Of a stretch of 64,000 nt of DNA, positions 3,457 through 56,572 are shown piece after piece (position 1 is the first letter of the stretch; every line of letters starts with the position of its first letter). The translations under genes and the position numbers were made by a program. Source of the DNA: Azolla caroliniana. Lineage: Eukaryota; Plantae; Polypodiophyta. The notes beneath the pieces are model-generated. The model worked only from the letters and a program-made list of their open reading frames with translations. It was not told the origin of the DNA and ran no database searches. The DNA lies in the NCBI GenBank assembly GCA_043228905.1, contig JBHGNT010000014.1:10974001-11038000 (forward strand). Direction: 5' to 3'.

Positions 3457-3863
3457 TATTACGTTTGGAGGTAACCCATCAGGTAGTTCACTTGGAAAAA
3501 CATCATGAAAATCATTTAAGATTTCATCAAGTTGTTGTTGTTCAAAATATGTTAATTGAACCGGGACATTATCGATATTGTAAATGTTGTCGTGCCTTTC
3601 GGCGCCGGATCGTTGTGTGAGTCGGGTGGGAACCACTGAGGTTTTGGACTAGGACAAAGTATTACGTTTAGGAGGTAACCCATCAGGTAGTTCACTTGGA
3701 AAAACATCATGAAAATCATTTAAGATTTCATCAAGTTGTTGTTGTTCAAAATATGTTAATTGAATCGGGACATTATCGATATTGTAAACGTTGTCGTGCC
3801 TTTCGGCGCCGGATCGTTGCGTGAGTCAGGTGGGAACCACTGAGGTTTTGGACTAGGAGAAAG
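3457..3863. repeat. ~203-bp tandem duplication spanning the element A / solo-LTR junction
   Basis: 3457-3659 is repeated at 3660-3863 with a few transitions and a 1-bp indel. Confidence 0.9.
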
Positions 3864-4566
3864 AAGAATATGAGATGAGGCTAGTAATGAATAGATTATT
3901 AGAAAGAGAGATAGAAATTTCGTGAATCCCACGAGTGTATTGTATTCGATTAATCAATATTTAGATAAGAATATGTATTTAGATTGAAAGAAAGATATAA
4001 GAAACTTGTGAATCCCACAAGTATAGATTATATTATTTTCGTGAATCCCATGATTATATTAATCGGTTGGTGTTTTCGGAAATATATCCAATTTCCAAAT
4101 ATTTCACACACCTTTTACATTGTGCTCCTCATCCTTATATAGAGATGAGAGAGTCTTTTCCAACCCATGCGTTTTCTCTAACTATAGACTCCATGCTTTT
4201 TCTATAGATAGACTATATGCTTTATCTAAAGTGATCATGCTTTTTCTAACTTGTGCGTTTTTTATAAACTATAGCGTTCATACACGCTAGATATGCATGC
4301 GTAGCTTTTTCTTTTAGCATGCGTTTTTTTCTTTTAACTAAAGTTTATCCTATGTGAACTTAACTTTCTTTGTGGGACATCTACTTTTTAACACTAATGA
4401 AATGCTAGTGTAATGGTAAGACATTACATTATTAACATGGAGGTGCAAGGTTCGAATCTTGCCCTATGCATGTTATATATATTTTAATATTTTCTACTAT
4501 TTATTCATATTTATTAAATCGGTACTTTATAAGTTTTTCACGTAGTGTACGAAATACACTACGACA
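3792..4566 (-). mobile_element. Solo LTR related to element D, inserted in the pol of A
   Basis: TGTCG...CGACA termini; 4-bp TSD ACGT; removing it restores the A frame (DIHV/YNIDN); reverse-complement similarity to the D LTR. Confidence 0.9.
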
Positions 4567-7500
4567 ACGTGAATGTCCGGATCAAGTACACAATAAAATA
4601 ACGTAGAACAAGACAACTCGGATATTGATGGACACGAGGAAACAATCGAGAGGGATTGTTTTTTTACACATTGAATAAATTGCGTACAATCGTTCAGTAC
4701 AAAAGAAATGGAATGGCGAACCCAATCAATAAATAAAGAAGAGTTTTTATTATAAAACCAGGGATAACCCAGTATTACATCGGTGGTACAAAGATTCATT
4801 ACATGGAAGTCTACTTCCTCTATATAAGTATCAATAGAAATTCCTAATGAATGAATCGCCCCGTTGATGTATTGTACTCTTCCATCAGCCAAGTGCACCG
4901 TGTAGGTGTGATCACTTACGGTGGGTTGGATTCCCCATATCTGAACCAAACGATCATTCACAAAATTGTGTGAGCTTCCCGAATCAAATAAAAATTGTAC
5001 GGGAGATCCATTGATATACTCGTTTGCACGTAGTAAATCATTGGGACCCAATACACAGTGAGGGAAAGAACATTGACAATTACTTAAATGATGTGTATAA
5101 ACCTGAAGGACATTAGGAATTTGACCTTTATGGTCTGCAGCTTTAGCTTTGTTGTCGTGCTCTTTCCGTTGGAGCTTTCGACATTAATCTTTTGTATGAC
5201 CCTTCTTTTTGCAGAATACGCAAAAAGGATGTTGTCGCTTACAGTCGCGATCCAGGCATTCGTTGGGTGTCTTGCGTTTCCCAACAAATTGCGACTGCTT
5301 AGTCCCGGGCGCTTCGTTGGGTTTGTTGTGGTCCTTCTTCGAAGTGTGTGGATAGCGAAGAACTATTTCAACGGCCTCTTCGAAGGATTTTGGATCCTTA
5401 TCGTGCACTATCCACTGATAGTCCGAATTGGGGATGCCATTGACAAAACAAGCTATCAACCAATTGTCCCCTTCTAGACCCGATTTTTGGATTTGGGTTC
5501 TAGCATGGTGAACATAGTCTTCTAGAGAGGAAAATTTCCTGCTAGAGAGGTTCATTAAAGCTTGTGCTGCCTCGGTTCGAGAGGGAGGTTGCAGAAATTG
5601 GCCCTTAAAAACCGTGACAAAATCTGTCCAGGTATCGGGCAATTTCCCCATAGTACGGAGCCCACGCCACCAGGCGGCGGCCTTACCCCCGAGTTCTCGG
5701 CCGACATATGCAATCTTCGTACTATCTGGCGTGGGATAGACCTCAAAATGAGACTCCCATCGTCCCAGCCATGTGCAGATGCTTCTTCGGTTCTTTCCTT
5801 TTTGTCTCCCATAAATGGCTTAACGACAAATGATGGTTCACCTTATCGCTCATCAGGTCTATTAGTCTCACGTTGTAGACTAATGACACGTGCCTCAAGA
5901 GCACTCTGAGATTGCCGAAGTTCGGTCATCTGTTGAGCGGTGAAACTAAGGTATTGGGTTATTTGTGCCAAATACATCTCAGTGGACATTTGTCCAGGAG
6001 GATTCCCTTGAGTTTCTTCCGCTTGAGCGGATGACATCAGGTCGTTAATTTGAGCCATTAAAGATTATTTCTGGAAAAGAAATAGGACAAGGTCAGAGAT
6101 ATAGTCATAACATCATGTCGTGATGTAAACATATCATGGGCGAGCATTAATCGATATCATTATCTCACGTCAATACCCCTCTAGATGTATGAGATGAGGT
6201 TCAAGATCAGGTTACTATGGTAACACAAAGGTGTTTTAAAAACCATGGGGGTGACAAATAAATGTCTTTCCCTGATCTCTATATCTATTTTTTCATGGTG
6301 GCTCCCCGAGGCTCAACCATGTATGTTCGCGTCATGAATTGTTTATACACGAAAAAAATGTTAACAATAAACTATGTTTCGGTGCTCTTTAAGTCCTATT
6401 ACGAGGACCCCAAGGTGCACTTAGAACTTAAGTCTAAACATGTGTTATAGTCATATATATCAAGGATGTTGTATGGTCTTGGTCATATTTGAACTCGAGA
6501 CCTCGAGAACAAATACATTAAACACTTGAGCCAACCAAGTAAGTTGCTCTTCTCGAATGCTTAATGTTTGATGCGTATAAGAGATATGCGAGGCAATTGA
6601 TCATATATGTTTTTTTTTAAAAGAACATATATTTCAAGGGTCCTTATTTCGCCCTCATTTACCAAAACTATGTTGGTACGTTACCTAACCTCAAGTCTCG
6701 TAATTACGATGGCATACGCCAAATTGCAACCTAATGGTTAAGCCAAATAAGCCTTCGTTTCGTAGTAGGCCCACGTGGCCCATCACATGGTCACGTCATT
6801 ACGAATGCCTCTCATAAGAACGAGCTCAGGGTGGCATCGTATCCATGTAACGAGGGAGGAATGTTGGATACGTGCGTCATTGGAGCGACCTCACTTGAAG
6901 TGGGTCAAGCCCTATGTACTCAACATCATTATGGCTATTGGCGTTTCTTTATGTAACGAAATCGAGGTCATCAACGGGGTTGTCAACAATAAAAAATTGT
7001 TGAAAAAGGGATGGTGACAACGCCATTCTCACAAAAATGTGAGGACGGTCACCAACATCCTTTTCCCGACAAGGACAACTTTCGATATAATCACGTAATA
7101 ACGAATATACACATATGTTTACTTATCACATATATACGATCAAATACGTATATATGTGACCACATATGCCTATATTAAACATATCGTTATATTAAATATC
7201 CACAAATGATGTGATTGAGATACGTAATCGAGGTATATACCTCTACGCACATGAAACATCCTCAAATAAGAGATCATCGTAATACGCAATTGAGGTATTG
7301 ACCTCTTACGCATACGAAACCAACCGCATATCGTTTACAACAAATCAAGGTATTAAACTCATACGTAATTGATGTATTAACCTTGTACGCATACGACACT
7401 CATCACATATTATTAATATGTCAAATGAGGTATTGACCTCGTGCACATATGTAAACGTTTTAGATAATCAATTAAAGACCACTACAACATCATTGACTTA

Positions 7501-7698
7501 ATGAAAAAAACTGACATATAAACTAAACACATGATTAGATGGGAGAAGAGAGAATAGAAAGAAAAATTATGGAAAGAGTTACCGAAGTTCTTTGTTGATC
7601 GTTCTCTAGATCAAGGCCGACCACACAACGATCGATCAGCATCAATCAAAAGACAAATGAAAAACAAAGAAACATTAGTACATAAATCTGATACCAAA

Positions 7699-8153
7699 TA
7701 TTAGAGATCTAAGTACTAAAGTAAGCTTAAGATAAGGATAAAAAAATGATAGATAGAAAGGAGAAAGAGAAAGAAGGGTGCCGATCCACCCGACAACCCC
7801 CGAGCGAAGGGATCAAGACGGACTCGAGCCTCGATCGGCGTCCCATACCACCGCCGTGGCGTCGAGTCGTACCTGGTGCTGGCGCGCTCGCTACAAGAGT
7901 TGACCAACCACAAGACCAGAGTCTCGATGTAGTCAAAAAGATCCTGAAATGAGGGTAGCTAGGCCTCTTATTTATAGCGATACCCAAGGCCCCCAGGCAA
8001 GTTCACATTGACCTAATGGGTTGTCTCAATCCCGAGGATTGAAAGTAATCCTCCCCTTCTTTACACTCTCGTTTAACCCTCACACTTATCCACGTGTATA
8101 GAATACTACGGTAAATTCTCACCACGGGATATTAAATGGTCATGCCCGTAACA
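7699..8153 (-). repeat. 5' LTR of element A
   Basis: Pairs with 202-657; followed on the minus strand by the Met PBS. Confidence 0.95.
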
Positions 8154-8202
8154 ATATCACGATCCATTGTGCACACAGAAGAGCCATAGTGCCTTTGTAA
8201 CA

Positions 8203-11557: not shown

Positions 11558-12755
11558 TGTCGTGAAAATCTATCACTATGTGCGGATCGTGAGGTGGAAT
11601 CGCCAGGGTCCTCAACCGGAAGGATTCGAAGTTTAAGATAGATTAAAAGAGAGAGAGAGATTGAGATAAAGATTAAACGCTTGATTTTAGATTTGAGAGA
11701 CAAGATTAATACATCACCAGATGGAATAACGAATTTTTTCTTACCTTTAATTTCTTGATTAATACATAGCCCGTTTTTCTTCTTCATCCACTCTTTTATG
11801 CATGTGAGGGTGCAAGACATGCATGTAATGGATAAAATGCATAAGATGCATGATTGCCATTTGGCACTCATGCATTACATGTGTTGCATGATAACCATGT
11901 CACTCAATCAAAGCTCTCATGTATGAGAATTTACATGTGAAAGTACAATGAAAGCTTTTTCCGTTTCACACCGAAATCTTCAAAACACCGTGTTTCGTGA
12001 TCAACCTATCCGATGGACCCGTCTATCCAGTCCATCCGGTCCGGTTCCGTCACCGTCCGGTCCCAATCCCGATCCCGATCCCAGTTTCGGTTCCGTCGTC
12101 GTCCGGTCCTAACCCCGGTTTCGGTGCCGACCGGCTTGTCCAGTTCAGTCGTCGTTCAGTCCCGGTTCCGTTGTCGTCTGATGTTGTCGCCTTTCGTCCG
12201 ATTCCGGTTCCGGTTCTGTCACCTTCCGTCTGGTTCTGGCATGTTCCGTCCAGTTGCAGCTCTGGTTCCATCGTCGTCCGGTGCTATCCACCGGTCCGAT
12301 TTCGTTGTCGTTTGTCTCGGTTCCGGTTTCGTCGTTGTCCGTTCGGATCCTTCGAAAAGGCTATTTGAATAACTTGGTCGCATCTATTTATCCAAATTAG
12401 ACAACCCAACCCTTTTGTGTTCCTAGCACATAGATTAAATATTAAGAGATATGGCTCTACTTATATAATCTTGAATCCTGATGTTGTCCTATCTATGTGG
12501 GATAAATCACAGTTTTGTTTTCCTCTTCTTCTTCTCAAACTTCACACTCACATAACTTGACACTAAGTTGTCCATTTCACATGTAGTAAAATGCATTCGA
12601 AAGCTCTTGAAGACATCCATTTTTTCGTACCAAGATATTGAACTAATATAAAATAATATTCTCACTATTATTGTTTCATATTGTGTGTGAAGAACCACAC
12701 TCGATTTTGGACATTTCATGCAATTTTCACACTATTGCCGAAAATCTTCACGACA
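11558..12755 (-). repeat. 3' LTR of element C
   Basis: TGTCG...CGACA; homologous to 55033-56223; contains a CCGG/TCCG-rich array. Confidence 0.9.
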
Positions 12756-12827
12756 TCCATCCCCACCAAACCGAACGTCCTCCAGTACGTGCCAAGAAGA
12801 GAGACTGTGAGATTTTAGCAATGGTGA

Positions 12828-15800
12828 TTAATCAGATTCCTCCAGGTCCTTGTTCACATAACTCAAGTCTGTAGGTTCAGTCTTACTATATTCATCGTCG
12901 AGGTGAACGAGGTTAGGATCCTTGTCTTGTCTTTTCTTGAAAATCTTTACTCTTTTTCCCGCAATGGGTATGGCCAACCTTGATCCGTCTAGCTCCGCAA
13001 GGTGGTAGGTGGCATTGTCGTTGGCACTTGTCACCACATATGGTTTGAACCATCTTCTTGCGAACTTTCTTGTTGTCCTGTGTTGATTGTCAAGGTTGTT
13101 GTCGTAGACCAATACCCAATCTCCTTCTTCGATCTTCTTGGGACGCAATCGATGTGTCTTATCCAACTGAATCTTGTTCTTGACTCGGCCTGCCTCGATC
13201 ATCTTTCACGCTTTTTCTAGATCTTCAGGCCTTCTTTCAAGCTGCCTTATCCGTGCCACCAATAATTCTTCTCAGCTCATCTCGTTCTCCCATGGTATCA
13301 CTACCCATGAGGCGATCGTCCTTTTGATGGCCATTACCGGCTTCTGTCCATACATAAACTCTATTGGCATATACCCTATCATTGAACTGTGTGTAGTTCT
13401 GTCGGACCACAAGGCATAGGGCAATAGTCGTGGCCAGTTCCCGACTCAACCGTTGCATGCTCGTACGATGGCTTTGACGGTTGGTCTATGACCTCGCTCG
13501 ATCTTCCCATTCGCTTCTGGATTGTAGGCAGTCATTAGGGAGAGCTTCACGCCTAGTCAATCGAAGAGCTCCGTTGCTTCGCATGCATCCAACTCCCCTC
13601 GATCAGCCACTATCTTTCCCACACATCCGTATCGGCAAACAACCTCTTCGAGTAGAAATTTGCAAACAACTGATGTCATCTTATTTGCCAAAGCCCGTCC
13701 TTCCACTTGATTTGTCAGGTCTTCTCTTGCCAGTACTAAGTACTTCATTTGTCCCACTCCCATTGGCATCGAGACCAAATCCACAATCCATTTGAAGTGT
13801 ATGGTGAGCGGGTATGTCGGTCGTAACTCATCACGATGATGTATGTTCGAATGTACTTGGCAAGTTTCGCATGTGGACACGAAATGGAGTATATCTTTGT
13901 ACATGGTTGGCCACCAGTACTTCTGCTTCAACTTTTTGAACGTCGCCCATGTTTCTCAATGACCTGCCCAAGGACTCTCGTGGAATTCGGTCATCAGTGC
14001 CATTTGCTCTTCTTTCTTCACCACCACTCGACGTGGCATTCCTGTCCTTTTTGGGTGTCGCAAGAGGAATCCTCCCTTTAGGAAGTATTGGTAAGATTTC
14101 TTCTAGATTCGTAGAGCCTCCTCTTTCATCAACGAAGCATCCGTCGTCATTGTTCTTAAGAATTTGCCAATCAATAACCACTCTCCTTCGTACTCGTCCT
14201 CGTTAAAGGCGTGGAGGGTTAGCGTGTCGTTCTCTTTCACTGATAGTCGAGAAATCTGGAAGAAGTCGAGGGTGACATCTTCATCTTCTGAAACCATGTC
14301 ACTTTCATTCTCAAATCTTGCCCTCGACAGCATATCAGCCATGACGTTCTTCTTCCTTGCAATGTGGCTGATCTCTAGGTTTAAAGACTTGATATAGGCA
14401 ATCCACCTTAGCATAGCTAGATCTGGTGTCGCACATCCTGAGATCATCCCGAGAATTGGGAGACAATCTGTCTCAATTATCACTTCTGGCCCGATCAGGT
14501 AGTCTTTGTTCATCTTCACTATAGACACAATACCCCAAAGTTCTCGCTTGACTTGGGTGTATCTTTGTTGTCGTTCACTGAGAACCTTTGCTCCGAACCG
14601 GATGGCATACCGCGCATTATCTTCTCCTTATTGGTTGATGACCCACCCGATTCCGGTTGGGCTTGTACCTACAGTCGAATAAATCGGCTTTCCTTCAGTA
14701 TAGTCGGCCTTCCTTAGCGTTAGAGCTTCAAGAAGTAGTTTCTTCAATCTTAGCATTGCGTTTGTATACTCATCTCGTCATTCGAACTTCATTATTTTCC
14801 TTAGCAATCCATATAATGGCTTGGCGACATGAGCATAGTGCGGAATCCAGATATGATAAAACACGCAACCTCCAAGGAACCTTCGAACCTCCATTTGGTT
14901 TACACATTCTTCTTTCATGTCCTGGATCGCATTCACCTTAGATGGCGAAAGCTTCCGGCCATATGCTCCACATAAGTGACCTACCACCAAGATCTTTGGT
15001 TGTCCGAATGCGGTTTTTTCTCCTGAAAATATCAATTTCGCATCTTCAAGCCTTTGGAGCACCTTCTCGCAATCTTTCATATAATCTACAACGAACTTCC
15101 TACACCCTTCCGTATTTTTCGATTCATCCTTCTCCTCATCCGAACATCCTTTTATGGGAATATCATCCAAGAATGGCATCATGATGTCCGGGATGCAATC
15201 CTTCAAAACCTTGTTCATGGCATTCACCATATGAGCCATGGAGTTCGTTGCACCTTGTGGTAAGGTACACATCCGCACAAGCCCGATCGGAGTCCTCGTG
15301 GTGGTAATGTCACGACTGTCGATCGCCAACTAGAATTGATCGTATCCAGAGTAGAGATCACCAATGGAGTAGATAGACTGGCCTGCAAACGCTTCGGCAA
15401 ATTCATCCACACTCGGACCGATTGCAGCATTCCAAATTGTCACCTTGTTGACGGGTTGAAGATCTTGGATGAATCACAATGATCCATTCTTCTTCGGCAC
15501 CGTGAACCACCTATTAGAATAGGAAGTATTCGACGATTCCCAAATTCCCATATCCGCCTTCTCCTTTAAGAGCTCGATCAGCTTCGGTAGGTGTGCTCAT
15601 AGAACCGGTAGCGGTTTCAAATTCCAAAGCACGTGCGGCACCGTGAAGATCACCATCGGTTCTATCGTCCTTTGCTCAGCACATCCAATTTCTTGGAGGG
15701 GAAATGCGAAAGCCTTCCCATGTCTTTCAAGAATTCCACGGAACATTCACTCCTCTTCAAGGAGGAGGAAATCCTCCTTCCCAACCCGTAGCTTTCTTTT

Positions 15801-16030
15801 CGTCTCTTCGGTGAAGACATGACCTATTGCCTTTGGATCCCTTAAGCTTGGATCATTAGAAACTTCCTTCATCTTTTGCCAGCTATGTTTTGGTAGCGGA
15901 ACCGCAACTGACTTGATTTTTCTATCCACTGTTTTATATTTTGTGTTGACTCCAGCTTCCTACATCAAGATGCCTCGATGATATTCATCGATGATAGCGT
16001 ACATGTTGACGGAGTTAACCGAAATCACGT
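12828..16030 (-). pseudogene. Pol (RT-RH-INT) of element C; N-terminal part at 52479-52776
   Basis: LPQGATNS, MPFLDD, ETDCLP, REDLTNQVEGRAL; broken by stops; homologous to the intact F pol. Confidence 0.9.
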
Positions 16031-17115
16031 TGTCGTAGGGTGAGTCACACACTACGTGAAATATGTAAAACACTATATCCGATTTGGAGTACGTATAATA
16101 AATAATAAATAAAATATTAAAAATATTTATTACGTGCATAGGGTAGGATTCGAACCCTGTACCTCCACATAGACAAACCCCATCCTTTCCACTATACTAG
16201 CATATTTTGAATTGTAAAGTTATACTAAACTTTATCCCATGTAAATATTCTAGATATGCATGGTACAAAAAGTTATTCATGCATACACACTCGAGTTAAA
16301 AGAAAAGATGGGATAGAAAGCTAATCATACACATGCAGTGTGCATGAAAACTAAAGTTAGGAAAAGCATGATTCTTGCATGTGATAAACTTAGACTCTTC
16401 CAACACAATATAAGGAAGAGAGAAAGATGTATAATGGTGGTTGTTTTGTTTTAGAAGGATTGATTCATACAAAATATTCGTGGGATTCTCAATTTTACAA
16501 TCTAATTCTCTCTTACAATCTAATTACCCATTGATACATTATACTCGTGGGATTCACGAGTTTCATATCTTCTTCTTATAATCTCTTCCTAATGAACATT
16601 ATCTCATATCCTTCTTGAAGTTAAAATCGTTGCCGGCCACAACCGGTTGTACGTGTGCGGAATAATAGTCAATCTAATGGAAAGGAAAAACATAATACAA
16701 AAACTTAGAATGACACAAATTTTAACGTGGAAACCCGAACTGGGAAAAACCACGTGGAGTCCACAAACTCCGAAACAGAACACTATGAGAGAAAGGAATA
16801 CAATCAGAGATCTCAGAGGCAACGACCTCGAGATCCCGCTTCGCCAACAGGCGGCTATGGAGCTCACACTCGTTCACTCTCACAGTTACAGAGGCAACAA
16901 CCTCGTCAATAGTAACTTTACAATAACGCACATATCTAACATGATTGCCCTAAGTACTTATATACTCATGTAATCTTTCGACTATTTACAAGTTTAGCCT
17001 TCCGTGTTGGCTATCTCCACGATTTCCCGTTTCTTCTCACTTCCCATCCAGAGGGACCTATTTCCTAACACTTCTTCTCACTCACGCAAACGATCCGGCG
17101 TCGAAAGGCACGACA
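16031..17115 (+). repeat. 5' LTR of element D (contains a copia solo LTR and a ~30-bp U5 deletion)
   Basis: Aligns to 51823-52478 on both sides of 16616-17070. Confidence 0.9.
16616..17070 (-). mobile_element. Copia-type solo LTR related to the element H LTR
   Basis: TG...CA termini; 5-bp TSD CTTCT; shares TTAACGTGGAAA, GGCAACGACCT and CCCATCCRGAGGGACC motifs with the H LTR. Confidence 0.85.
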
Positions 17116-17153
17116 AAATTGGTGAACCCGACGTGAACACGGGTGGCAAGGAG

Positions 17154-22400: not shown

Positions 22401-22505
22401 CAACGAAAACCGCGATCGCAACATGGACAATGCTACCGTGGAAAGAAGAGATGAGCCAGGAAGAACTACTAGCGGTCCGGATACGACAACTAGAGGGAAG
22501 ACCAG
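19413..22505 (+). pseudogene. Pol of element D (-1 frame); integrase tail resumes at 51341-51766
   Basis: RT, RH and INT motifs; frame restored across the E insertion (LEGRP/EDIVEAIR). Confidence 0.9.
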
Positions 22506-35888: not shown

Positions 35889-35955
35889 CAAACAAAAATG
35901 AATCCTCACCAAAATTGGCACATACCGGTGGATGTGCAGGTTTGGTGGGGGCGAA

Positions 35956-39736: not shown

Positions 39737-39955
39737 CATTCATCATCCGGTTCCGTAACCGGGGTCTTCATCATCCGGCTCCGTGGCCGGGGTCTTCATC
39801 ATCCGGTTCCGCAACCGGGGTCTTCATCATCCGGTTCCGTAACCGGGGTCTTCATCATCCGGTTCCGTAACCGGGGTCTTCATCATCCGGTTCCGTAACC
39901 GGGGTCTTCATCATCCGGCTCCGTAGCCGGGGTCTTCATCCTACGGTTCCGTAAC
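39737..39955. repeat. 28-bp tandem array (~8 units) in U3 of the H LTR; second copy at ~44608-44826
   Basis: Unit CTTCATCATCCGGTTCCGTAACCGGGGT. Confidence 0.92.
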
Positions 39956-40028
39956 AGCCTCCGGGCTTGCCGTCATTCATCTCCGGACATCCCATCCGGA
40001 GGGACCGAAATCCCAACAAACTCCCCCT

Positions 40029-44102: not shown

Positions 44103-45624
44103 TTTCTGCAACAGTCGCTCTGATACCAGTTTGTCGGGAATCAACGCTTGGATTCACCTTCACCACTGGGCCACAACCGAGTAATCGCGGATCAATGCAG
44201 CAGAAAAATAGGAAATACAGAGAAAGACGCGATACACAGGAATTAACGTGGAAAACCCTATACGGGAAAAACCACGGGAGTGCGAGACTCCAAACCAAAC
44301 TATGCACAGAGAAATATACAATGGCGAGCTGCAAGGCAACGACCTTGAGCTCGCTGTCCTCGCCACAGGCGGCGGAAATACACAGAGGCGTCTACCTCTT
44401 CGTCTCTCTCGCGCTCTATCTCTCTCTCGGCTGCTCTCACTTCGCTTCCTCTCAGTGAAAACAGAAAATGAGCAACAACGTAAAACTGTTTGCCCTAAGT
44501 CATATTTATACACATATGACTTTCGGGCTATTTACAAATATAGCCTCAAGGGCTCTTGGCAAACATATTCACAAATATGTCTCCTCATCCGGATCTCTCT
44601 CCGGGTACATTCATCATCCGGTTCCGTAACCGGGGTCTTCATCATCCGGCTCCGTGGCCGGGGTCTTCATCATCCGGTTCCGCAACCGGGGTCTTCATCA
44701 TCCGGTTCCGTAACCGGGGTCTTCATCATCCGGTTCCGTAACCGGGGTCTTCATCATCCGGTTCCGTAACCGGGGTCTTCATCATCCGGCTCCGTAGCCG
44801 GGGTCTTCATCCTACGGTTCCGTAACAGCCTCCGGGCTTGCCGTCATTCATCTCCGGACATCCCATCCGGAGGGACCGAAATCCCAACAGGAAATAACGA
44901 GGGAGCCGGTCCATCAAGGAAATACAACGCTCGAGGTGCACGAAGAAGGGAAGAGCCGAACCAGTCTCAAGCACGCGATCAAAGATGGAAAGAGAAGGGG
45001 AACCCCCCCAACTTCAAGCTTTGCTCGGAGATCAAACAAGCAACGGACTTGAAGAAGGTAGTGGAGGAGAGGATCCTCGATAGTCCCGTAGAGTTTACTC
45101 TGCGAGAGGTCCTCGGAATTGCCAAGAAAGAATTCCACGAGGTCATCATCGACCTAATGAAGAGGAAGCGGCTCTCAACGAAGCAAGAAGTGGCAAAACC
45201 CACGATTGTAAATGCATTGTCAACTGAGGTCCCCGAGGAAGACGAAGACTATGTGGATAGTCACTACACGAGGCCGCATTGGGCGAGAGCGACAACGGAG
45301 ACACCGGTACGGGTTGGAGATGTAAAAGAGCCAGTGGTAGCATTGATCGACCATGGCTCTGAGATCAACCTTATGTCCATGGACTTTTATAAAAAGGGAA
45401 AGTGTCTGATCAACACGAAGCACGGGTGGAAGATTAGAGCGGCGATCCGAGCAACCGAGGAGCTATACGGGGCTTGCCCGAATGTACGTGTGAAGGTGGG
45501 GGACGTAGAAATAGATCAACATTTCTTTGTTCAAGAGCCAAGATGGGAAGCATTCGGTCCAATTCCTTACAGTGAGACCCAACCATGAGCGCAATCGAGC
45601 CTCCCTCAAAGGGGATAACCGAGA

Positions 45625-48600
45625 GGATTTTTTATTCGGGCTATTTAAGAGTGGGGCCGCAATAGCCCGAGGCAAACTAAGACCCTAAACCCTTGTAAAA
45701 CTATTAAATGTAATAGGAAACAATTTTGGTTCTCCAAAAATGGAGCTTGTAAAATTACTAGTTTAAGTGATAGAGATAAGTCTAGGGCCAAGAGATACGA
45801 AAGGTATCTCAAACAATGTAATTTATTGGGGGAAGATGACACCATAAGCGGCGCCATGGAGGCGGTCTCGTTCGACGACACTCTCAGAGAGATGGAGAGG
45901 TTAGTCGTTTCGGGCCTCAATGAAGACAAGGTAATTCCAGTCAACTCAATTCACATTTACACCGCCATCGAAGAGCTGGGGCGGTTGATTGAGGAAGCGA
46001 GGACGGTCAAGGTGCAAACAAAGTACAAGACCGTGGACAAGAAGGTGAATCCCATGGCTGCCCCATTGCCTAACGATAGTTGGGATCGGATAAAGGGGGT
46101 AGCGGCTAATCCTAGCTTGCGGGACCCACGAGGCATAGGGCACCGGTTCACCGACGAGACGCGACAGAAGCTCCGGGATGGTGGGGGGGGCTTCCTATTG
46201 CCTAGGGAGGAGGAAAGATTTAGAAGGATGATCGAAAGCCACGGAAGGGCTTTCGCCTTCTCGTCGGGTGAGATAGGGTGTGTAAACCCTAAGATCATGG
46301 AGCCAATGGTGATCTTTACGGTGCCGCATGTACCGTGGAACATCAAGCCAATCCCCGTTCCGAGAGCTCACATCCCAAAGTTGATTGAGCTACTCAAGGA
46401 AAAGATCGAGATGGGTATCCTCGAACCATCAAGCGCCCCATACTCGAATCGGTAGTTCACTATGCCAAAGAAGAACGGCACATTACGCTTCATCCAAGAC
46501 CTACAACTTGTTAATCAAGTGACAATTCGAAATGCCGAGGTCAGACCGAGCGTTGACGAATTCGCCGAGGCCTTCGCTTGAAGGTCTATTTATTCGATCA
46601 GTGATCTATACTCGGGGTATGATCAATTCCAACTAGCTGTGGAGAGTAGGAACATCACGACGATGCGGACCCCTATCGGCCTAGTGCGAATGTGTACCTT
46701 GCCACAAGGAGGCACTAACTCTATAGCCCACATGGTAAATGCAATGAACAAGGTACTAAGAGATTGCATCCCCGACATCACCATGTCATTCCTCAATGAC
46801 ATCCCCATAAAAGGGTGCTTTGAAGCAGAGAAAGATGAAACCTTGGACGAGGATGGGTGCAAACGTTTTGTGGCATATCACATCTCCGATTGCGACAAGG
46901 TTCTACAAAGACTTGAAGATGCACGCTTGACCTTCTCGGGTGAGAAATCGGCATTCGGCCAACCGGAGATCCTTGTGGTGGGACACTTGTGCGGGGCGTA
47001 CGGACGGAAGCCGTCCCCGACAAAGGTGGACACCATCACAGACATGAGGGAAGAATGTAAATCGCAAACAGAGGTGAGGCGATTTCTTGGTGCTTGTGCA
47101 TTCTACCACATCTGGATCCCGCACTATGCTCACCTAGCCAAGCCCTTGTATGGGCTACTCAAGAAGGGGCAGAAGTTCAAGTGGGAGGAAGAGCACACAG
47201 AGGCAATGAAGAGGCTCAAAGGAATGTTGGTAGCGGCACCAGCTTTACGAAAAGCTAGATACAAGTCCAACAGGGATCGGATGGGTCATTAACCAAGAAG
47301 GAGAGGATGGTACACGCTATGCCATCCGGTTCGGAGCCAAGGTCTTAAGCGAGCGACAACGAGGATACGGCCAAGTAAAACGTGAGCTTTGGGGTATTGT
47401 GTCCACAGTGAAGGCGGATAAAGATTACCTAATCGGGGCAGAGGTGGTAATAGAGACAGATTGCCTTCCAATCCTAGGGATGGTTTCGAGGTGTGCAACA
47501 CCTGACCAGCTATGCTAAGGTGGATTTCTTACATCAAATCAATGAACCCGGAGATTCACCACATTTCAGGGAAGAACAATGTTATGGCAGATATGCTATC
47601 GAGGGCAAGGTTCGAGGGCGAAAGCGACATGGTGTTTGAAGATGAGGATGTCGCTCTTGACTTCTTTAAGACGGCCCAAGCATCTATAGATGATCAAGAT
47701 GTGTGAGTACTCCACGCCTTCAACGAAAGTGAATACGAAGGGGAGTGGCTACACATTGGCAAGTTCTTAAGCTCAATGACGGTGGATAGTTCATGGACGA
47801 AGCAGGAAGCACAGAGAGTCCAAAAGAAAGCGTACAAGTACTTCCTACGAGGGGGATTCCTATGGAGGCACCCGAAGAGAAGGACGGGGACGCCACAACG
47901 AGTGGTCATAAAGGAAGAGGACCAGACAACATTGGTGTCTGAATTCCACGAGAGTCCTTGGGCGGGCCATAGAGGAACGTGGGCAACATTCGAGAAGTTA
48001 AAGGAGAAGTATTGGTGGCCGGGAATGTACAAGGATGTCGCCCATTTCATGGGGACATGTGAAAGCTGCCAGATACACTCCAACATACGCCATAGGGACG
48101 AGTTGCACCCGACCTACCCACTCACCATACACTTCAAATGGATGGTGGATTTGGTTTCGATGCCGATGGGAGTGGGCCAAATGAAATATTTGGTGCTAGC
48201 AAGAGAAGACCTAACAAACCAAGTAGAAGGGCGGGCCTTAGCAAACAAAACAACGGCGGGGGTGTGTAAATTCTTACTCGAGGATGTCATCTGCCAGTAC
48301 GGATGTGTGGGAAAGATAGTGGCCGACACAGGAGAGTTGAATGCTCACGAAGCTACAGAGCTCTTTGACTGACTTGGAGTGAAGCTCTCTCTCACGACCG
48401 CTTATAACCCGGAGGCTAATGGAAAGATAGAACACGGACACGGGCCTATCGTGAAAGCCATTGTACGAGCTTATGATGGGCGAGTCAAGAATTGGCCTCG
48501 GTTACTACCTTATACCTTGTGGGCCGATAGAAAAACTCATAGCTCAATTACAGGTTTCATGCCAGCTGAACTCATGTACGGACAAAAGCCGGTGATGCCC

Positions 48601-49095
48601 ATTGAAGACACGATTGCTTCCTGGGTAGCGATGCCATGGGAAAATGAGATGAGTCGAGAAGAGCTTCTAGCCACAAGGATAAGGCAACTTGAGAGAAGAC
48701 CCGAAGACTTGGAGTTGGAAAAGGAGAGGTTAGAAGCGGCTAGGCTAAGTAACAAAGCCCGATTCGACAAGACACACCGACTACGCCCTCGGAAGATCGA
48801 AGAAGGAGACTGGGTGATTGTATATGATAGTAGTCTCGACAATCAACATAGCTCGATGTGAAAATTCGCAAAGCGATGGTTCGGGCCATACATGGTAACT
48901 AAGGCAAACGATAATGCTACCTACCACCTCGCTGAACTCGATGGGACTAAGCTGGAAGTACCAATAGCCTGGAAGCGGGTCAAAATCTTCAAAAAGCGAC
49001 ACGACAAGGAGCCAAACCTCGATGACCTTGACGAAGATAAAGGCGAGCAAACAACAAACCACGGGGTCAATGAGGAGGAGAAAATAAACTATTGA
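45625..49095 (+). pseudogene. Pol of element E (disrupted)
   Basis: RT, RH and INT fragments homologous to F pol, with several stops and deletions. Confidence 0.9.
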
Positions 49096-49155
49096 CCACC
49101 CTCAGCCCACCATTCTTGGCACATACCGGAGGATGTGCGGTTTGGTGGAGGTGGA

Positions 49156-51340
49156 TGTCGTGATGTGGCGTGCTCGAGGGTGGGAAAAACCGGCGAAAGG
49201 GGCGGTCAAAAATGTGCATGTGCAATGTGTGTGCACACAAAAGCGATTAATTGTGCAAATACAAAATAAAAAGGAAAAGAAAGGGTAAAAAGGAGGTATA
49301 GAAGCTCGTGCAAAAAGTAAGAGAGAGGAGAGATACAAGGTAGAGGGGAGACAGGCTATAAATTTATAGAGATAGCATTATATATTGTATAAGAGAGAGT
49401 TAGTGGGCTAGTGGATAGTCACATTGATTACTAGCTGGAGGTGCACAGTTTGAATCTAGTCTTATAATGCAGCGTGATTTAATGAATGTTATTCCTTTTT
49501 CATTGAAGAAAAATTTGGCGACCCCCCTTTCTTTTTTTCCTATAAAAGGAGGTCGAGGGGGGCTCATTCGGGAGGACGTTTCAGGAGGAGGAGACTATCA
49601 CCAATTTTCCTTCGAAGCTTTTCATCTCCTTATTCACCACTTCTCTTCATCTCATACCCTTCATCCCCCATCGCCACGTGCTCGTCTTATTCGCGTCACC
49701 ACTCGAAGTGCTCGTGAGCCCAAGCTTCGTTGGTTCGACGTTGCTCCGCCCCATTCGTCGTTGCGAGCCCGTGTGTTCGCCGTTCGGATGGTCGTGGTTC
49801 GTTGGGATTGGCATTTTGGTGGTGCTCGTGTGTTCATCTTCGTCGTGTTCGGTTTTGCCTTGTCTCTAAGGGCATTTAATATTTATGTTTTGATTGAGCT
49901 TGTGGTTAACTATAAGTTTCCATTGTAAACAAAACCCTATTTTATAAAGGGTCCTCTTGCATTAGAATCGAACACTATTTATCTCTTTGCTCAATATCAT
50001 TCGTGTTTCTTTCTCTCCTTCTTACTTTATTCTTGTCTTTCCTGTACGTTCGACTGTCTTGTGACGAGGGGACCGTTCAGGCTTGCCCATGTACCTCTCC
50101 TCCTCATAAAGGCGTACGAGCATTTGTATGTGTGTTTGTGTCTTCCTTGTACGTTCGGCCATCTTGTGACGAGGGGAACGTTCAAGGTTGCCCATGCACC
50201 TCTCCTCCTCATAACGGCGTACGAGCATTTTCTGCATATGTTTGTGTCTTCCTTGTACGTTCGACCGTCTTGTGACGAGGGGACCGTTCGGGCTTGCCCA
50301 TGCACCTCTCCTCCTCATAAAGGCATACGAGCATTTGTGTGTGTGTTTGTGTCTTCCTTGTACGTTCGACCGTCTTGTGACGAGGGGACCGTTCGGGCTT
50401 GCCCATGCACCTCTCCTCCTCATAAAGGCGTACGAGCATTTGTGCGTGTGTTTGTGTCTTCCTTGTACGTTCGACCGTCTTGTGACGAGGGCACCGTTCG
50501 GGCTTGCCCATGCACCTCACCTCCTCATGAAGGTGTATGAGCATTTGTGCGTGTGTTTGTGTCTTCCTTGTACGTTCGACCGTCTTGTGACGAGGGGACC
50601 GTTCGGGCTTGCCCATGCACCTCACCTCCTCATAAAGGCGTACGAGCATTTGTGTGTGTGTTTGTGTCTTCCTTGTACGTTCGGCCGTCTTGCGACGAGG
50701 GGACCGTTCGGGCTTGCCCATGCACCTCTCCTCCTCATAAAGGCGTGCGAGCATTTTGTCCATGTGTTTTGTATCTTCCTTGTACGTTCGACGTCTTGTG
50801 ACGAGGGAGCGTTCGGGCATGCCCATGCACCTCTCCTCCTCATAAAGACGTACGGACATTCGTGTTTGTGTTATCGTCCCCTTGTGCGTTCATGTTGCTT
50901 GCTCATCTTACTTGTACCCGTTTGGTCACTTGGTTCGTAGGGTGATCTCGGAAGGTCGATGAGTCGTGATCAACAAGAGACACCGGCCTCATAAAACAAA
51001 GGGCAACGAGACCTTGCTCGGGAACGGGTCGGGAAGTAGTATTGTCGTAAAGCAAACCTCGGGTCTTCTCTATCCCTTGAGTACTCCCTAGTCCAAGACC
51101 CCTGTGGTCCCGCCCAAGTAACACACGTGCGGGAAACTTTGCGACATAAATTGGTAGTCGTGATCAACGAGACCCACCGGCCTCACAAAACAAAGGGCAA
51201 CGAGACCTTGCTTGGGAAGGGGTCGGGAAGTATTATTGTCGTAAAGCAAACCTCGGGTCTTCTCTATCCCTTGAGTACTCCCTAGTCCGAGACCCCCGTG
51301 GTCCCACCCAAGCAACACACGTGCGTGAAACTTTGCGACA
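49156..51340 (+). repeat. 3' LTR of element E with 8 x ~105-bp array (50043-50865) and duplicated U5
   Basis: TGTCG...CGACA; aligns to 22506-23430 + 37338-38465. Confidence 0.93.
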
Positions 51341-51822
51341 CCGGAAGACATAGTGGAAGCAATACGCTGACAACAAGAAGAGCGATTCCGGAATAAAAGC
51401 CTGTTCGACACAAAGCACCGACTACGACCGCAGAAGTTTGAAGAAGGAGATTGGGTGATTGTCTATGACAGTAGTTTGGATCATCAACATACAACGATGC
51501 GGAAGTTCGCGAAAAGGTGGTTCGGGCCATACGAGCTTTGGAAAGTTTTCAGCAACTGAACTTACCGACTATGCGAGTTGCATGGAACGATACTACGAGT
51601 GTCTATAGCCGGGAAACGGGTGAAGATTTTCAAAAAGCGGACTGATGAAGAACCCTATGTGATCCTAGATAAGACCGAGAAGGAGGAGCAATCGGACGAA
51701 AGTGGATTACAACTCATAGTCGACTTAAGGGGAGAATCGGAGGAAGCTTCGGATGAAGGTGAATAGCAAGCATCGGGAACTTCGGCACATACCGGAGGAT
51801 GTGTGGGTTCGGAGGGGGCGAG

Positions 51823-52478
51823 TGTCGTAGTGTGAATCACACACTATGTGAAATATGTAAAACACTATATCCAATTTAGAGTACGTATAATAAATAAATA
51901 ATAAAATATTAAAAATATTTATTATGTGCATAGGGCAAGATTCGAACCCTATACCTCCACGTAGACAAACCCCATACTTACCACTATACTTGCATATTAT
52001 GAATTTTAAAGTTATACTAAAATTTATCCCATGTAAATATTCTAGATATGCATGGTACAAAAAGTTATTCATGCATACACACTCGAGTTAAAAGAAAAGG
52101 TGGGATCGAAAGCTAATCATGCACATGCAATGTGCATGAAAACTAAAGTTAGGAAAAGCATGAGGCTTGCATGTGATAAACTTAGACTCTTCCAACACTA
52201 TATAAGGAAGAGAGAAAGATGTATAATGGTGGCTGATTGTTTTTAGAAGGATTTATTAATACAAAATATTCATGGTATTCACGATTTTACAATCTAATTC
52301 TCTCTAACAATCTAATTACCCATTGATACATTATACTCGTGGGATTCACGAGTTTCATATCTTCTTCTTACAATCTCTTCCTAACGAACATTATCTCATA
52401 TCCTTCTTTCTCCTAGTCCAAAACCCCCGCGGTTCCCACCCGACTCATGCAAACGATCCGGCGCCGAAAGGCTTGACA
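51823..52478 (+). repeat. 3' LTR of element D
   Basis: Aligns to 16031-17115; follows the PPT. Confidence 0.93.
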
Positions 52479-52766
52479 ACGTGATGATCGTGAAGATAGC
52501 TCAAGTGCATGACTTCCTCGATTTCGCCGATGGTGTCGTTAAATGGGGCCTCTTCCATAATATGAGTCACGAATTCTTCTTCTTCTATTATGTTTTCTTC
52601 TTTTAGCATCTTCTCCAATGCTTGTCCTTCTTGTTGGGTAGTACTAGTTTACATGCGCCATTAGGTGTGACACATGTTGTTTCTCCTTGCAATCCACATG
52701 CTCTACTTTCTTGTGGGGACTTGTGATCACTCGGACTATTTGTGCCCCATACTTCAATAGTCCGCT

Positions 52767-54960
52767 CTAAAAATCCGAGGATTCGCCTCCAAGACTATCT
52801 CGATTTCTTTCATGATTAGCTCGTACCGTTAGGAATTGAATAGATCTTTGATTGTCAAGACTCTTGATTCACACGAAGGCTACTCCATTATCGAACACCT
52901 TGGTCTCCATCCGGGAAGATGTGATAATCGGTTGACCTAGGATGATAGGATGCGAAGTCAATTCTTGCACGAAGAAGTGTTGATCCATCTCCACATCCCC
53001 AATCGTGACTTTAACATTGGGACAAGCTCCCTACAAGTCCTCTGTGGCCTTTGTTGCCGCTTGAATCTTCCATCCATGGTTTGTATTGATCGGCCATCTT
53101 CCTTTTTGTAGAACTCGGTTGACATGAGGTTGATCTCTGAGCCACGGTCGATCAAGGCTACCACAATCTCTTTCTTCTCCCCAATCTTCACCAGCGTCTC
53201 CGTTGTCGCTCGTGCCCAATGAGATCGAGTATAGTGGTTGTCCAACATATCTTCATCGACTTTGTCTCTTACCATTTTTATGGCATTTGGTTTTGCTTTT
53301 AGTGGCTTCTCTTCTTCCTCGTCCGATTGTTTTCTTTTTCTATTTACAAGGTTCACGATCGTATCATGGAACTCCTTCTTCGTAATGCCGAGCAATTCCC
53401 TCAAGGACAAGGTCACATGGTTATCGAGAACACGTTCTTCGAGAATATTCTTCAGATCTGTCGTTTGCTCATGTCTGACCTCAGCTTATAGGTAGGCATA
53501 GTTCTTGTCTTCCGAGCGGGGTCTTCGTCACCAACCTTCACGGCGCAAACCATTTCTTCGACTCGTTTGTTCGAATCCCCTTTTTGGCTTGATTCTCGTT
53601 CCTCCGTTTGTAAAACTCGACTCGTTTTTGGATCTTCCTTCTTTTTCACGCTACTTGTTTCATGTCTTTTTGATGGGTTGTAATGCCCTTACATTCTTTT
53701 TCTCTTTTCATCCACGAACACTTCATGTTTGTCACACATTACTTCCGCGAGTATGGTGTTGTCATCCACTGGATCCGACCATCCGGTGATACTTTGTACA
53801 CTTCGGTCTGCAAGCTCTACCTCGTTCAAAGGGACTTTTCCCTTCTTCTCATACTGGAGAACGGTAGACCAGAACTTTGCTCCCACTTTTGCAGCTTCAA
53901 TTTTGTCTTTCCCGACTCTTATTCCGGCCAACGCAACATAGTGCATCACATCCACATGAGTTTCTTTGGCATCCTCCATAGCTTTCTTCATTCCCCCTCT
54001 TCCGAAATTCACTCGTAGGGGTCTTCTTATCTCACTCAAGCAGATCATGTTGTCATCCATGTATACGATATTTTGTCGAATGGCATCTCGAAGGCTCGTG
54101 CAATCCCTTCTCATGTGGTCCATGCTATCACACCACACGCATCTAAAGGGTTCTTTTCCTTTGGGGCCCCAACGATTCATGTTGGCAAGCGTGACCATCT
54201 CGAACATCTTCGCTAGTTCTTCGATGATGTCATCATCAATCTTCTTTTCTTCCGGGTTGCTTTGTTTGGGCGGCTCAGCTACTTTCGGTTGTCTTGTTTT
54301 CTCCCTGACAGTCGATCTTGCCCAATCGGTGTCATCAACCCACTGATGACGCTTGTCGAGCCTATTGCACATCCGCTTCACCGCAATCCAATCAACCACA
54401 AGCCCATTTGCTTGGGTATCATCTTCAAGAAGAGTCCCCAATCCTCGTCTATCCTTCATATCCACAGCTTTCAAGAAGTACAAAGTCTTGTCCTCCTCAA
54501 GCAGCACTTGGTCCGTGTTGGGGAGACGACTAAACATCTGGTCGAATTCGTTGTACACCCTCGAAACGCTCATCCTCTTATTCTTCTTTTCTATCCACTT
54601 CATCAAGCCGTGTCGAGTCATCCTCGACAAATATTCCGTTGCGAACTCCGCTAATATCGCTTTCTCGAACCCGGACCATGTCCCTTCTTGAAGCTCGACA
54701 GCGCGCCTTTGGACATTGTTGGCGACCACTCTCTTGAAACTTGCGATTTGACGTGCTTCAGACACATCCCTCTGATTCATCTCCCTTTTGTGTGCATCAA
54801 GGAACTTCATAATGTTCCTTCCATCAAATTGACCCTCGAGCTCCACGACACAATCGACGGCCTTCTCCACGCTCGCATCTTTGTCCCGAGATCTCATCAT
54901 TTGTTCGACGATTAGCATCATCATTTCAAACTCTCCCGCTTGATTGCTTGAGGACGTCAT
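52767..54960 (-). pseudogene. Gag-protease ORF1 of element C
   Basis: GQFDGRNI, CVWCDSMDHMRRDC, ALIDRGSEINL; frameshifted; ends DF-stop. Confidence 0.9.
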
Positions 54961-55032
54961 CTCCAAGTATCGGTTGATCCTCGACTCGATCCTTCCTACC
55001 GCCTCTTTCACGTCGGGTTCACCACTTAATTA

Positions 55033-56223
55033 TGTCGTGAAAATCCGTCACTATGTGCGGATCGTGAGGCGGAACCGCCGGGGTCCTGGACCGGAAGGAT
55101 TCGAAGTTTGTACTAGCTTTAGCGAGAAAGTATTTAAGATAGATTGAAAGAGAGAGAAATTAAGATGGGGAGAGAGAGATTGAGATAAAGATTAAATGCT
55201 TGACTTTAGATTTGAGAGACAAGATTACTACATCACTAAATGGGATAAAGAATTTTCTTACTTTTAATTTCTTGATTAATACATAGCCCGTTTTTCTTCT
55301 TCATGTACTCTTTTATAGATGCCCCCATGCATATGATGCATGTGAGGGTGCAAGACATGCATGTAATGCATAAAATGCATGAGATGCATGATTGCCATTT
55401 GGCGCTCATGCATTACATGTGTTGCATGATAACCATGTCACTCAATCAAAGCTCTCATGTATGAAAATTTACATGTGAAAGTATAATGATAAAAATATAA
55501 CTTAAAGAAATGACTCGGCTTTTTTCGTTTCACACCGAAATCTTCAAGACACCGTGCTTCGTGATCAACCTATCCGACCAACCTATCTATCCGGTCCACA
55601 TTCGACTCGGTCCATCCGATCCGCATCCGACAGGGTGATCCGGTCTGGTTCCGGTGTCGTCTGGTCCCGATCCTTGTTCTGTCGTCGTCCGGTCCCGATC
55701 CCGATCCTGTCCGATCTGGTTCCGTCGCCGTCGCCGTCCGTTCGGTCCTATTCTGATTTCGTCGCCTTCTGTCCAGTGTCATCCGTCTCCGTTCCGGTTC
55801 CGTCGTCGTCTGTCCGGATCCTTCCAAAACACTATTTCAATAACTTGGTCGCATCTATTTATCCAATTTATACAACCCAACCCTTTTGTGCTCCTAGCAC
55901 ATAGATTAAATATAAAGAGATATGGCTCTACTTATATAATCTTGAATCCTGATGTTGTCCTATCTATGTAGGATATCTCATAGTTTTGTTTTCCTCTTCT
56001 TTTCAAACTTCACACTCACATAACTTGACACTAAGTTGTCCATTTCACATGTAGTAAAATGCATTCCGAAGCTCTTGAAGACATCCATCTTTTCATACCA
56101 AGATATTAAACTAATATAAAATAATATTCTCACTATTATTGTTTCATATTGTGTGTGAAGAACCACACTCTATTTTGTACATTCCATACAATTTTCACAC
56201 CGTTGCTGAAAATCTTCACAATA
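55033..56223 (-). repeat. 5' LTR of element C
   Basis: Followed on the minus strand by an 8-nt spacer and the Trp PBS. Confidence 0.9.
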
Positions 56224-56572
56224 GCATAACGCTAACTCCCCATGTTGTTGTTGCGTTTGTTGTTTTTCTAAAGCAATTTGTTGAAGATCACCTAACAATC
56301 ATTGGTTTTCTAGTTCCAATGCAACGAATTTTTCTTTTAGACAATGTAGCTCGGAAAAAACGTATTGATATTCCTGGGCGCTAATAGTAGCCATAGTATT
56401 GGAAAAAGGGGTAAGAGGATGAGGGAAACTGAAAAGAAGACCAAATGGAGAAATTGGGTCAAACTATCAAGAATAGTACTAAAATAGAGGGGAAATTCGT
56501 ACTAGAGAAGGGAAATACTATTAGTACTAAGAGGATAGACTACGTAAGATTCACGAGAGAGAAATAGCAAAG

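What the first reader, a model, noticed from the sequence alone, without database searches (positions are those of the whole stretch)
3788..56227. All five insertions of the Trp-primed gypsy lineage have 4-bp TSDs centred (or inferred centred) on CpG
Seen: TSDs are ACGT/ACGT (solo LTR 3792-4566), ACGT/ACGT (D, inside the palindrome ATCACGTGAT), CCAG/CCGG (E), CCGT/CCGT (F) and ACAT/GCAT (C). The 4-bp length is confirmed by restored host frames or repeat units. Both C copies derive from GCGT by CpG deamination alone. The copia and chromovirus TSDs here (AGAGC, GGAAA, CTTCT, AYATC) are 5 bp and lack CpG. Four clear N-CG-N hits have probability about (1/16)^4, ~1.5e-5, under uniform base use. Known: most plant LTR elements make 5-bp TSDs with weak sequence preference. 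Inference: this chromodomain-less integrase reads CpG, possibly methyl-CpG, which would steer it into CpG-rich TEs and explain the self-nesting.
Basis: partly seen in the sequence, partly recalled or inferred. Interest (0 to 1): 0.85.

Follow-up and report, generated by a model that had tools for sequence, protein, structure and literature searches.

The report
CpG-centred target sites of Phygy-like retrotransposons
Five nested jumping-gene insertions sit in 4-base target duplications centred on CG, a real and strong preference that is already published for the moss Phygy lineage to which these elements likely belong, while the idea that the enzyme senses methylated CG remains untested.

Summary
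All five insertions have 4-bp target-site duplications (TSDs); 4 bp, not 5, restores the host frame or repeat unit. All five sites are CG-centred in the empty host family. In 65 further distinct junctions from metagenome contigs the centre is CG in 46, TG/CA in 16, TA in 0 (background CG 3.8%). A is favoured and T avoided as the outer base.

The rule is in print. Neumann 2019 lists Phygy as 186 elements, TSD 4 bp (100%, NCGN), PBS tRNA-Trp 81%, 7.7-10 kb, no chromodomain. These elements fit that profile, but no Phygy reference sequence was available for a tree.

Steering into CpG-rich or own-lineage DNA is not supported. CG density is flat around junctions, CG-poor flanks are hit, and only 3-5 of 65 flanks are own lineage. 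Methyl-CpG reading could not be tested; the integrase has no extra reader domain. Ordinary: a likely new member of a known lineage.

The parts
3792..4566 (-). solo LTR of the D family (775 bp), inserted in pol of chromovirus A; TSD ACGT at 3788-3791 and 4567-4570
   Evidence: 4 bp restores the host frame
3457..3863 (.). 204-bp tandem duplication across the solo LTR's left junction; the second copy of the TSD (3584-3587) reads ATGT, a CG>TG decay after insertion
11558..56223 (-). element C (LTRs 11558-12755 and 55033-56223, 91% identical; PBS 55009-55024; net 8.2 kb); TSD ACAT 11554-11557 / GCAT 56224-56227; inserted in the gag of gypsy element B
16031..52478 (+). element D (LTRs 16031-17115 and 51823-52478, 93%; PBS 17120-17135; net 7.6 kb, about 7.15 kb without the solo LTR in its 5' LTR); TSD ACGT 16027-16030 / 52479-52482; inserted in C's pol
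22506..51340 (+). element E (5' LTR 22506-23430 plus 37342-38465, 3' LTR 49156-51340, 94%; PBS 38471-38486; net 9.3 kb); TSD CCAG 22502-22505 / CCGG 51341-51344; inserted in D's integrase
   Evidence: empty site CCGG in L068 and L037, CCAG in L044
23431..37337 (+). element F, youngest (LTRs 23431-24673 and 35956-37337, 98% of aligned bases; PBS 24678-24693; net 8.4 kb); TSD CCGT 23427-23430 / 37338-37341; inserted in the 105-bp repeat of E's 5' LTR
32415..35888 (+). F pol open frame, 1157 aa: RT, RNase H, integrase (34707-35885: zinc finger, DDE core, SH3-like domain, short acidic tail; no chromodomain, no second RNase H found)
202..8153 (-). control: chromodomain-bearing gypsy element A, 5-bp TSD ACATC/ATATC; host of the solo LTR
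26281..31814 (-). control: copia element in F, 5-bp TSD AGAGC
39261..44889 (-). control: copia element in E, identical LTRs, 5-bp TSD GGAAA
16616..17070 (.). control: unrelated 455-bp solo LTR in D's 5' LTR, 5-bp TSD CTTCT; family not determined

Best explanation
These nested elements are chromodomain-less Ty3/gypsy retrotransposons, likely of the Phygy lineage, whose insertions duplicate a 4-base target centred on CG, most likely because the integrase itself reads that short sequence, probably without needing methylation. Shown: 4-bp TSD, CG at the centre, A (then C) preferred and T avoided at the outer positions, TA never used, and decay of the CG to TG/CA after insertion in several pairs. 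Inferred, by analogy with foamy-virus integrase (also a 4-bp stagger): the target is kinked at the central pyrimidine-purine step, and base contacts from the core and the SH3-like domain narrow the choice from any such step to CG; the conserved loop at integrase residues 315-328 is a candidate, untested. Inferred: the nesting reflects where insertions are tolerated and accumulate, since usable CG sites occur every 15-60 bp everywhere.
For: 46 of 65 distinct outer 5' junctions CG-centred against 3.8% background, p=2e-50; 16 of the other 19 are TG/CA against 14%, p=1.5e-11; CG is enriched only at positions -3/-2 (46 of 64, at most 6 of 64 at any other offset to -14). At 18 outer 3' junctions positions +2/+3 are CG 6, TG/CA 9, other 3, and none has CG at +3/+4, which fixes the stagger at 4 (counted). 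Outer base, both sides folded: A 56, C 19, T 9, G 8 of 92; A enriched 2.6x, T 0.26x, p=2e-16; TA 0 of 65 against 6.3% background. C-family loose ends in runs X1 and X22 have majority letters ending ACG or ACGG before the LTR (agreement 0.36-0.55). Phygy row of PMC6317226 Additional file 5: 4 bp (100%) NCGN, tRNA-Trp 81%, 7656-9968 bp, no extra domain. RTs of C, D, E, F form one clade (98/88) inside a group with Riccia and Adiantum proteins (99/98), far from the window's two chromovirus-type RTs. Integrase model pLDDT 82, best matches foamy-virus and Ty3 intasomes; foamy virus prefers a central YR step with Ala188 and Arg329 reading the adjoining bases (PMC4176367 passages). CG-centred 4-bp targets also occur in Ginger1 (CCGG 75%, CCGT/ACGG 24%) and the Drosophila ZAM subgroup (CGCG); that D. 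melanogaster has little CpG methylation is recalled.
Against: No Phygy reference protein was in the tree, so membership rests on structural features. That the PBS (TGGTGAACCCGACGTG, 4 copies) pairs with tRNA-Trp is recalled, not shown (searches gave no tRNA to test it). D's net length (about 7.15 kb) is below Phygy's range. Of 9 D-family solo LTRs with both flanks, only 3 match as 4-bp TSDs with CG decay alone (L019, L033, L057), 1 with one transversion (L049), and 5 do not match (L023, L025, L032, L059, L069); none matches at 5 bp. Two tests that TG/CA centres are older copies were inconclusive (p=0.40, one usable column, trend opposite; p=0.33), so some TG/CA sites may be primary targets. 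All 92 contigs come from 10 assemblies with neighbouring accession numbers and 61 of 65 junctions are D/solo family. All 24 classifiable flanks are retroelements and no host-gene family reached its cut-off, which a methylation preference would also give.
Confidence: 0.72

Rival explanations
1. The integrase prefers methylated CG, so new copies are steered into already silenced DNA.
For: All five window hosts and all 24 classifiable outside flanks are retroelements. The TSD CG decays often (16 of 62), so these sites are methylated at some time. Cytosine methylation created strong target preferences for an alpha-retroviral integrase in vitro (Kitamura 1992, seen only as cited in PMC11054761), so no extra domain would be needed.
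Against: Decay can follow insertion (ATGT in the 204-bp duplicate; discordant pairs E, L019, L033, L057). No reader domain: the integrase ends about 20 unconserved acidic residues after the SH3-like domain. CG-centred targets occur in unrelated lineages. TE-rich flanks are expected from selection alone. No methylation data were examined.
Confidence: 0.15
2. The integrase only needs a bendable pyrimidine-purine step; CG, TG and CA are all primary targets.
For: 62 of 65 centres are CG, TG or CA; both C copies carry CA; age tests inconclusive; foamy-virus precedent.
Against: TA is 0 of 65 although 6.3% of background; CG is 46 against 16 for TG+CA although TG+CA are 3.6 times commoner; 4 of 5 pairs with a 4-bp match and a decayed copy keep CG on the other side (E, L019, L033, L057; C is the exception).
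Confidence: 0.06
3. The elements are TatI, the only other plant lineage listed with 4-bp TSDs and tRNA-Trp, or a separate non-seed-plant lineage with the same habit.
For: TatI: 4 bp (100%), tRNA-Trp 75%, 8950-9421 bp. F pol has unassigned stretches of 282 aa before RT and about 120 aa between RNase H and integrase. No reference tree.
Against: TatI carries a second (archaeal-type) RNase H in 100%; none was found in F pol, P0001 or two full Riccia polyproteins by Pfam at E<=1 or in the two stretches against PDB sequences. No positive control for that domain was run. NCGN is reported only for Phygy.
Confidence: 0.06
4. Chance or mis-set boundaries.
For: Five sites only; motif chosen after seeing them.
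Against: Frames restored; p=2e-50 in 65 junctions found by a pattern that holds no flank letters.
Confidence: 0.01

Closest known systems
Phygy (non-chromovirus Ty3/gypsy of Physcomitrella patens; Neumann et al. 2019, PMC6317226)
   Same: 4-bp NCGN TSD, no chromodomain, no second RNase H, about 8-9 kb, PBS read as tRNA-Trp; nesting into chromoviruses as reported for P. patens, where Phygy in Tcn1 was the commonest repeated pair (PMC6911290 passages).
   Different: Host here is unnamed and probably another non-seed plant (inferred: nearest named relatives are Riccia, 68%, and Adiantum). Outer-base bias (A favoured, T avoided) is measured here; PMC6911290 already notes AT-rich bases around the GC-rich centre of 4-bp TSDs. 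Phylogenetic identity not tested.
TatI (OTA/Tat clade)
   Same: 4-bp TSD, tRNA-Trp, about 9 kb.
   Different: TatI has an archaeal-type RNase H; none found here. No NCGN reported for it.
Ginger1 DNA transposons (PMC2836005)
   Same: Gypsy-type integrase, TGT ends, 4-bp TSD CCGG or CCGT/ACGG.
   Different: Cut-and-paste elements with inverted repeats in animals; C, not A, is the preferred outer base.
Drosophila ZAM subgroup (PMC5408687)
   Same: Ty3/gypsy integrase with a palindromic CG-containing target (CGCG among TATA, CGCG, ATAT).
   Different: Insect errantiviruses with AGT ends; the centre of CGCG is GC, not CG.
Prototype foamy virus integrase
   Same: Best structural match; 4-bp stagger, central pyrimidine-purine step.
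   Different: Weak preference for any such step; here CG in 71% and TA never.

Membership tests
Phygy | Ty3/gypsy domain order PR-RT-RH-INT | tested here: met
   (protease hit weak, E 0.004)
Phygy | 4-bp TSD with NCGN motif | tested here: met
Phygy | PBS complementary to tRNA-Trp | tested here: inconclusive
   same 16-nt PBS in C, D, E, F; identity as Trp is recalled; no tRNA found to test it
Phygy | no chromodomain | tested here: met
   the same scan finds the chromodomain of element A
Phygy | no archaeal-type RNase H | tested here: met
   no positive control
Phygy | length 7656-9968 bp | tested here: inconclusive
   C 8214, E 9290, F 8368 within; D about 7150 below
Phygy | groups with P. patens Phygy in RT/RH/INT trees (the formal definition) | not testable with these tools
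   no named P. patens protein among the listed hits (120 of 249; 120 of 329); tree without references
Phygy | no extra open reading frame | not tested
   not examined systematically
TatI | archaeal-type RNase H present | tested here: not met
Chromovirus | chromodomain; RT in the chromovirus clade | tested here: not met
methyl-CpG-targeted integration | preference for methylated over unmethylated CG | not testable with these tools
   no methylation data or assay available

The most novel reading that the evidence does not exclude
The Phygy-type integrase is a built-in methyl-CpG sensor: with no reader domain it cuts preferentially across methylated A-CG-T, so a retrotransposon targets silenced DNA through the DNA mark itself rather than through histones. 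Nothing here excludes it: every identifiable target is a retroelement, and methylation is known to create hot spots for a retroviral integrase in vitro.
Probability: 0.12. Interest if true: 0.75.

Novelty: new member of a known kind. Interest (0 to 1): 0.2.

Why it matters
The rule is published, so the window adds a clean example and a sharper motif (A-CG-T best, T-CG-A and TA avoided) in a second, unnamed host, with relatives in liverworts and a fern. Phygy is the one plant LTR lineage reported with a target sequence, and no mechanism for it turned up in four searches. F offers an open pol frame to test one. If methylation mattered, it would be a histone-independent route into silenced DNA. 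Practical point: tools that demand identical TSDs and intact TG...CA ends will under-count this lineage because its TSD and LTR ends decay.

Tried and rejected
No whole genome is held, so no genome-wide logo. Viral contigs held no match to the LTR pattern. Earlier findings of the scan: none. Age tests for decay were inconclusive: CpG decay in LTRs of CG versus TG/CA copies 20:8 versus 9:1 on one usable column, p=0.40; overall 17 of 56 decayed, close to 16 of 62 at TSDs; contigs running through the LTR versus breaking early 16:9 versus 17:4, p=0.33. Flank CpG o/e did not differ between CG and TG/CA sites (medians 0.78 and 0.84). Fungal host considered because of DUF4100/DUF4939 hits and rejected as less likely: nearest named pol relatives are Riccia and Adiantum; Ylt1-like fungal elements were not compared by sequence (one search gave passages only). 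No tRNA could be found to test the PBS. PMC7466625, PMC6839031, PMC12810828 and PMC12477314 (passages) added nothing on Phygy targets. No reads were laid on D-family LTR ends, so D-family counts rest on contigs alone. GCGT as C's target rejected. CpG-density steering rejected.
Full report
WHAT IS THERE. Bases 202-56227 are a nest of LTR retrotransposons. Four elements of one chromodomain-less Ty3/gypsy lineage are stacked: C (11558-56223, minus) holds D (16031-52478), which holds E (22506-51340), which holds F (23431-37337). LTR identities rise inwards: 91, 93, 94, 98%. A solo LTR of the D family (3792-4566) lies in chromovirus A. C lies in the gag of a second gypsy element, B, whose RT groups with A. 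C, D, E and F share the PBS TGGTGAACCCGACGTG; that it pairs with plant tRNA-Trp is recalled. No genome is held. The host is inferred to be a non-seed plant: named pol relatives are Riccia (68%) and Adiantum.

THE OBSERVATION. Four bp keeps the host frame for solo, D, E and C; F restores a 105-bp repeat unit. The four other insertions have 5-bp TSDs without CG. With the window's CG frequency (4.9%), 4 of 5 has p=2.8e-5, or 4.5e-4 allowing for the motif being chosen afterwards.

THE TWO UNCLEAR SITES. E: of 5 D-family relatives without E, two read CCGG (L068, with an identical left flank, and L037), one CCAG and two differ; one F-family row was out of register. C: 46 of 47 gag homologues of B that align at the site have Arg where the window gives Cys (57 hits; 7 lack the region, 3 align off-site), which implies a CG-containing codon. 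Reads and contigs of uninterrupted B copies give the site as ACGT (219 reads in X22, agreement 0.87; contigs in X2 and X3). So C is CG-centred in its family, but GCGT is not supported. Since both C copies show CA, that host copy may have decayed before it was hit.

OUTSIDE TEST. A pattern for the LTR start of the D, solo and F families, holding no flank letters, found 92 metagenome contigs. I dropped 22 junctions preceded by the element's own polypurine tract and 5 duplicates, leaving 65. Centres: CG 46, TG 12, CA 4, GG 2, GT 1. Background CG is 3.8% (p=2e-50); TG/CA make 16 of the 19 others (p=1.5e-11). ACGT alone is 17. Folded outer bases show A 2.6x and T 0.26x against local NCGN sites; TCGA, the commonest NCGN in the flanks (14%), is hit once; TA never. 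At 18 outer 3' junctions CG or its decay products sit at +2/+3 in 15 and CG is never at +3/+4 (counted), so the stagger is 4. Against: of 9 two-sided D-family solo LTRs only 4 match at 4 bp (3 with CG decay only) and 5 do not match; none matches at 5 bp. Short-read chimeras or recombination between copies are likely causes, not shown. Limits: 10 assemblies with neighbouring accessions, probably the same or a close host (L030 is 99.1% identical to F over 1500 bp); 61 of 65 junctions are D/solo family, 4 are F; C family is covered only by majority letters; the exact-match pattern favours young copies.

IT IS KNOWN. Neumann et al. 2019 (PMC6317226; passages, section 9 and Additional file 5 read) state that Phygy elements have an insertion preference for NCGN, unlike other plant lineages, and list 186 elements, 4 bp (100%), tRNA-Trp 81%, 7656-9968 bp, no extra domain. 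Their element table (Additional file 1) was not seen and may already hold the outer-base bias. Jedlicka et al. 2019 (PMC6911290, passages) report GC-rich centres with AT-rich neighbours in 4-bp TSDs and Phygy nested in Tcn1. Phygy is also named in a liverwort genome (PMC12885004, passages). TatI shares 4 bp and tRNA-Trp but has a second RNase H, not found here (no positive control). Membership by tree could not be tested; my tree (44 rows, none dropped, 38 of them picked by hand from the hits) only shows C, D, E, F together among Riccia and Adiantum proteins.

MECHANISM. The F integrase folds like foamy-virus and Ty3 integrases: zinc finger, DDE core, SH3-like domain, then a short disordered acidic tail, with no chromodomain or other reader. 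Foamy-virus integrase also staggers by 4 bp, prefers a central pyrimidine-purine step and reads neighbouring bases with core and C-terminal residues (PMC4176367, passages). The inferred model is the same bend with tighter base reading. Pure bendability is unlikely because TA is absent and CG beats the commoner TG/CA. Ginger1 (PMC2836005, passages) and the ZAM subgroup (PMC5408687, passages) show that gypsy-type integrases reach CG-containing 4-bp targets repeatedly.

STEERING AND SELF-NESTING. CG density is 0.037-0.041 from 10 to 2000 bp away from the junctions, and flank CpG o/e spans 0 to 1.66 (60 flanks of at least 200 bp). CG per kb: own lineage 44-62, copia 69-74, A and B 33-38, right end 18-24. 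A CG requirement could bias at most two- to fourfold towards TEs and not towards self. Of 65 flanks, 24 hit a retroelement (12 copia-like, 7 chromovirus-like or other gypsy with two weak, 5 own lineage with two uncertain) and 41 are unclassified. No host-gene Pfam family reached its cut-off in 103 frames from 57 loci. Short-read assembly disfavours repeated flanks, so self-nesting is under-counted.

METHYLATION. Not testable here. Decay of the TSD shows methylation at some time, and in four pairs and the 204-bp duplicate it happened after insertion. A retroviral precedent exists (Kitamura 1992, seen only as cited in PMC11054761). Searches found no test of it for Phygy. I give it 0.12-0.15.

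VERDICT. Real, strong and already published for the lineage these elements most likely belong to. Interest 0.2.

Noticed in passing
window 3457-3863: A 204-bp tandem duplication spans the solo LTR's left junction and copies 72 bp of LTR end; the copies differ at several CGs including the TSD (ACGT versus ATGT).
   Followed up: partly
window 37337-38030 and 50034-50872; 23743-24030 and 36268-36697; 39739-39955: [quoted passage not shown] The E-type 105-bp array is hit by F here and by a D-family LTR in L057/L079.
   Followed up: partly
L014:4237-5100 and L047:296-1000: An LTR preceded by the polypurine tract and followed by a PBS: tandem elements sharing one LTR.
   Followed up: no
window 7689-7696 and 647-1306 (minus): Chromovirus A has a chromodomain and a TGGTATCA primer site (initiator-Met type, recalled), so it is not a self-priming Tcn1-type element; clade not determined.
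   Followed up: no
window 11197-11553 (gag of B): Its named distant homologues are from arbuscular-mycorrhizal fungi (Cetraspora, Dentiscutata; 51-58% identity), in line with reported moss-fungus links of Tcn1-like elements.
   Followed up: no
window 18664-19422 and 44770-45588: Gag region of D and E hits DUF4100, also seen in the Riccia polyproteins; possibly a marker of the lineage.
   Followed up: no
window 26780-30883 and 40029-44153: Two copia elements with uninterrupted 1366-1374 aa frames and 99-100% identical LTRs: very recent insertions.
   Followed up: no
window 57999-58066; 58478; 58932-59225: Degenerate TTTAGGG-like repeats, a minus-strand TGGTATCA site and a copia-like fragment right of the nest.
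   Followed up: no
L079:143-1255 (minus): Probable E-family solo LTR with flanks AGGT/ACGT; and a C-family 5' junction ATGT in L060.
   Followed up: partly
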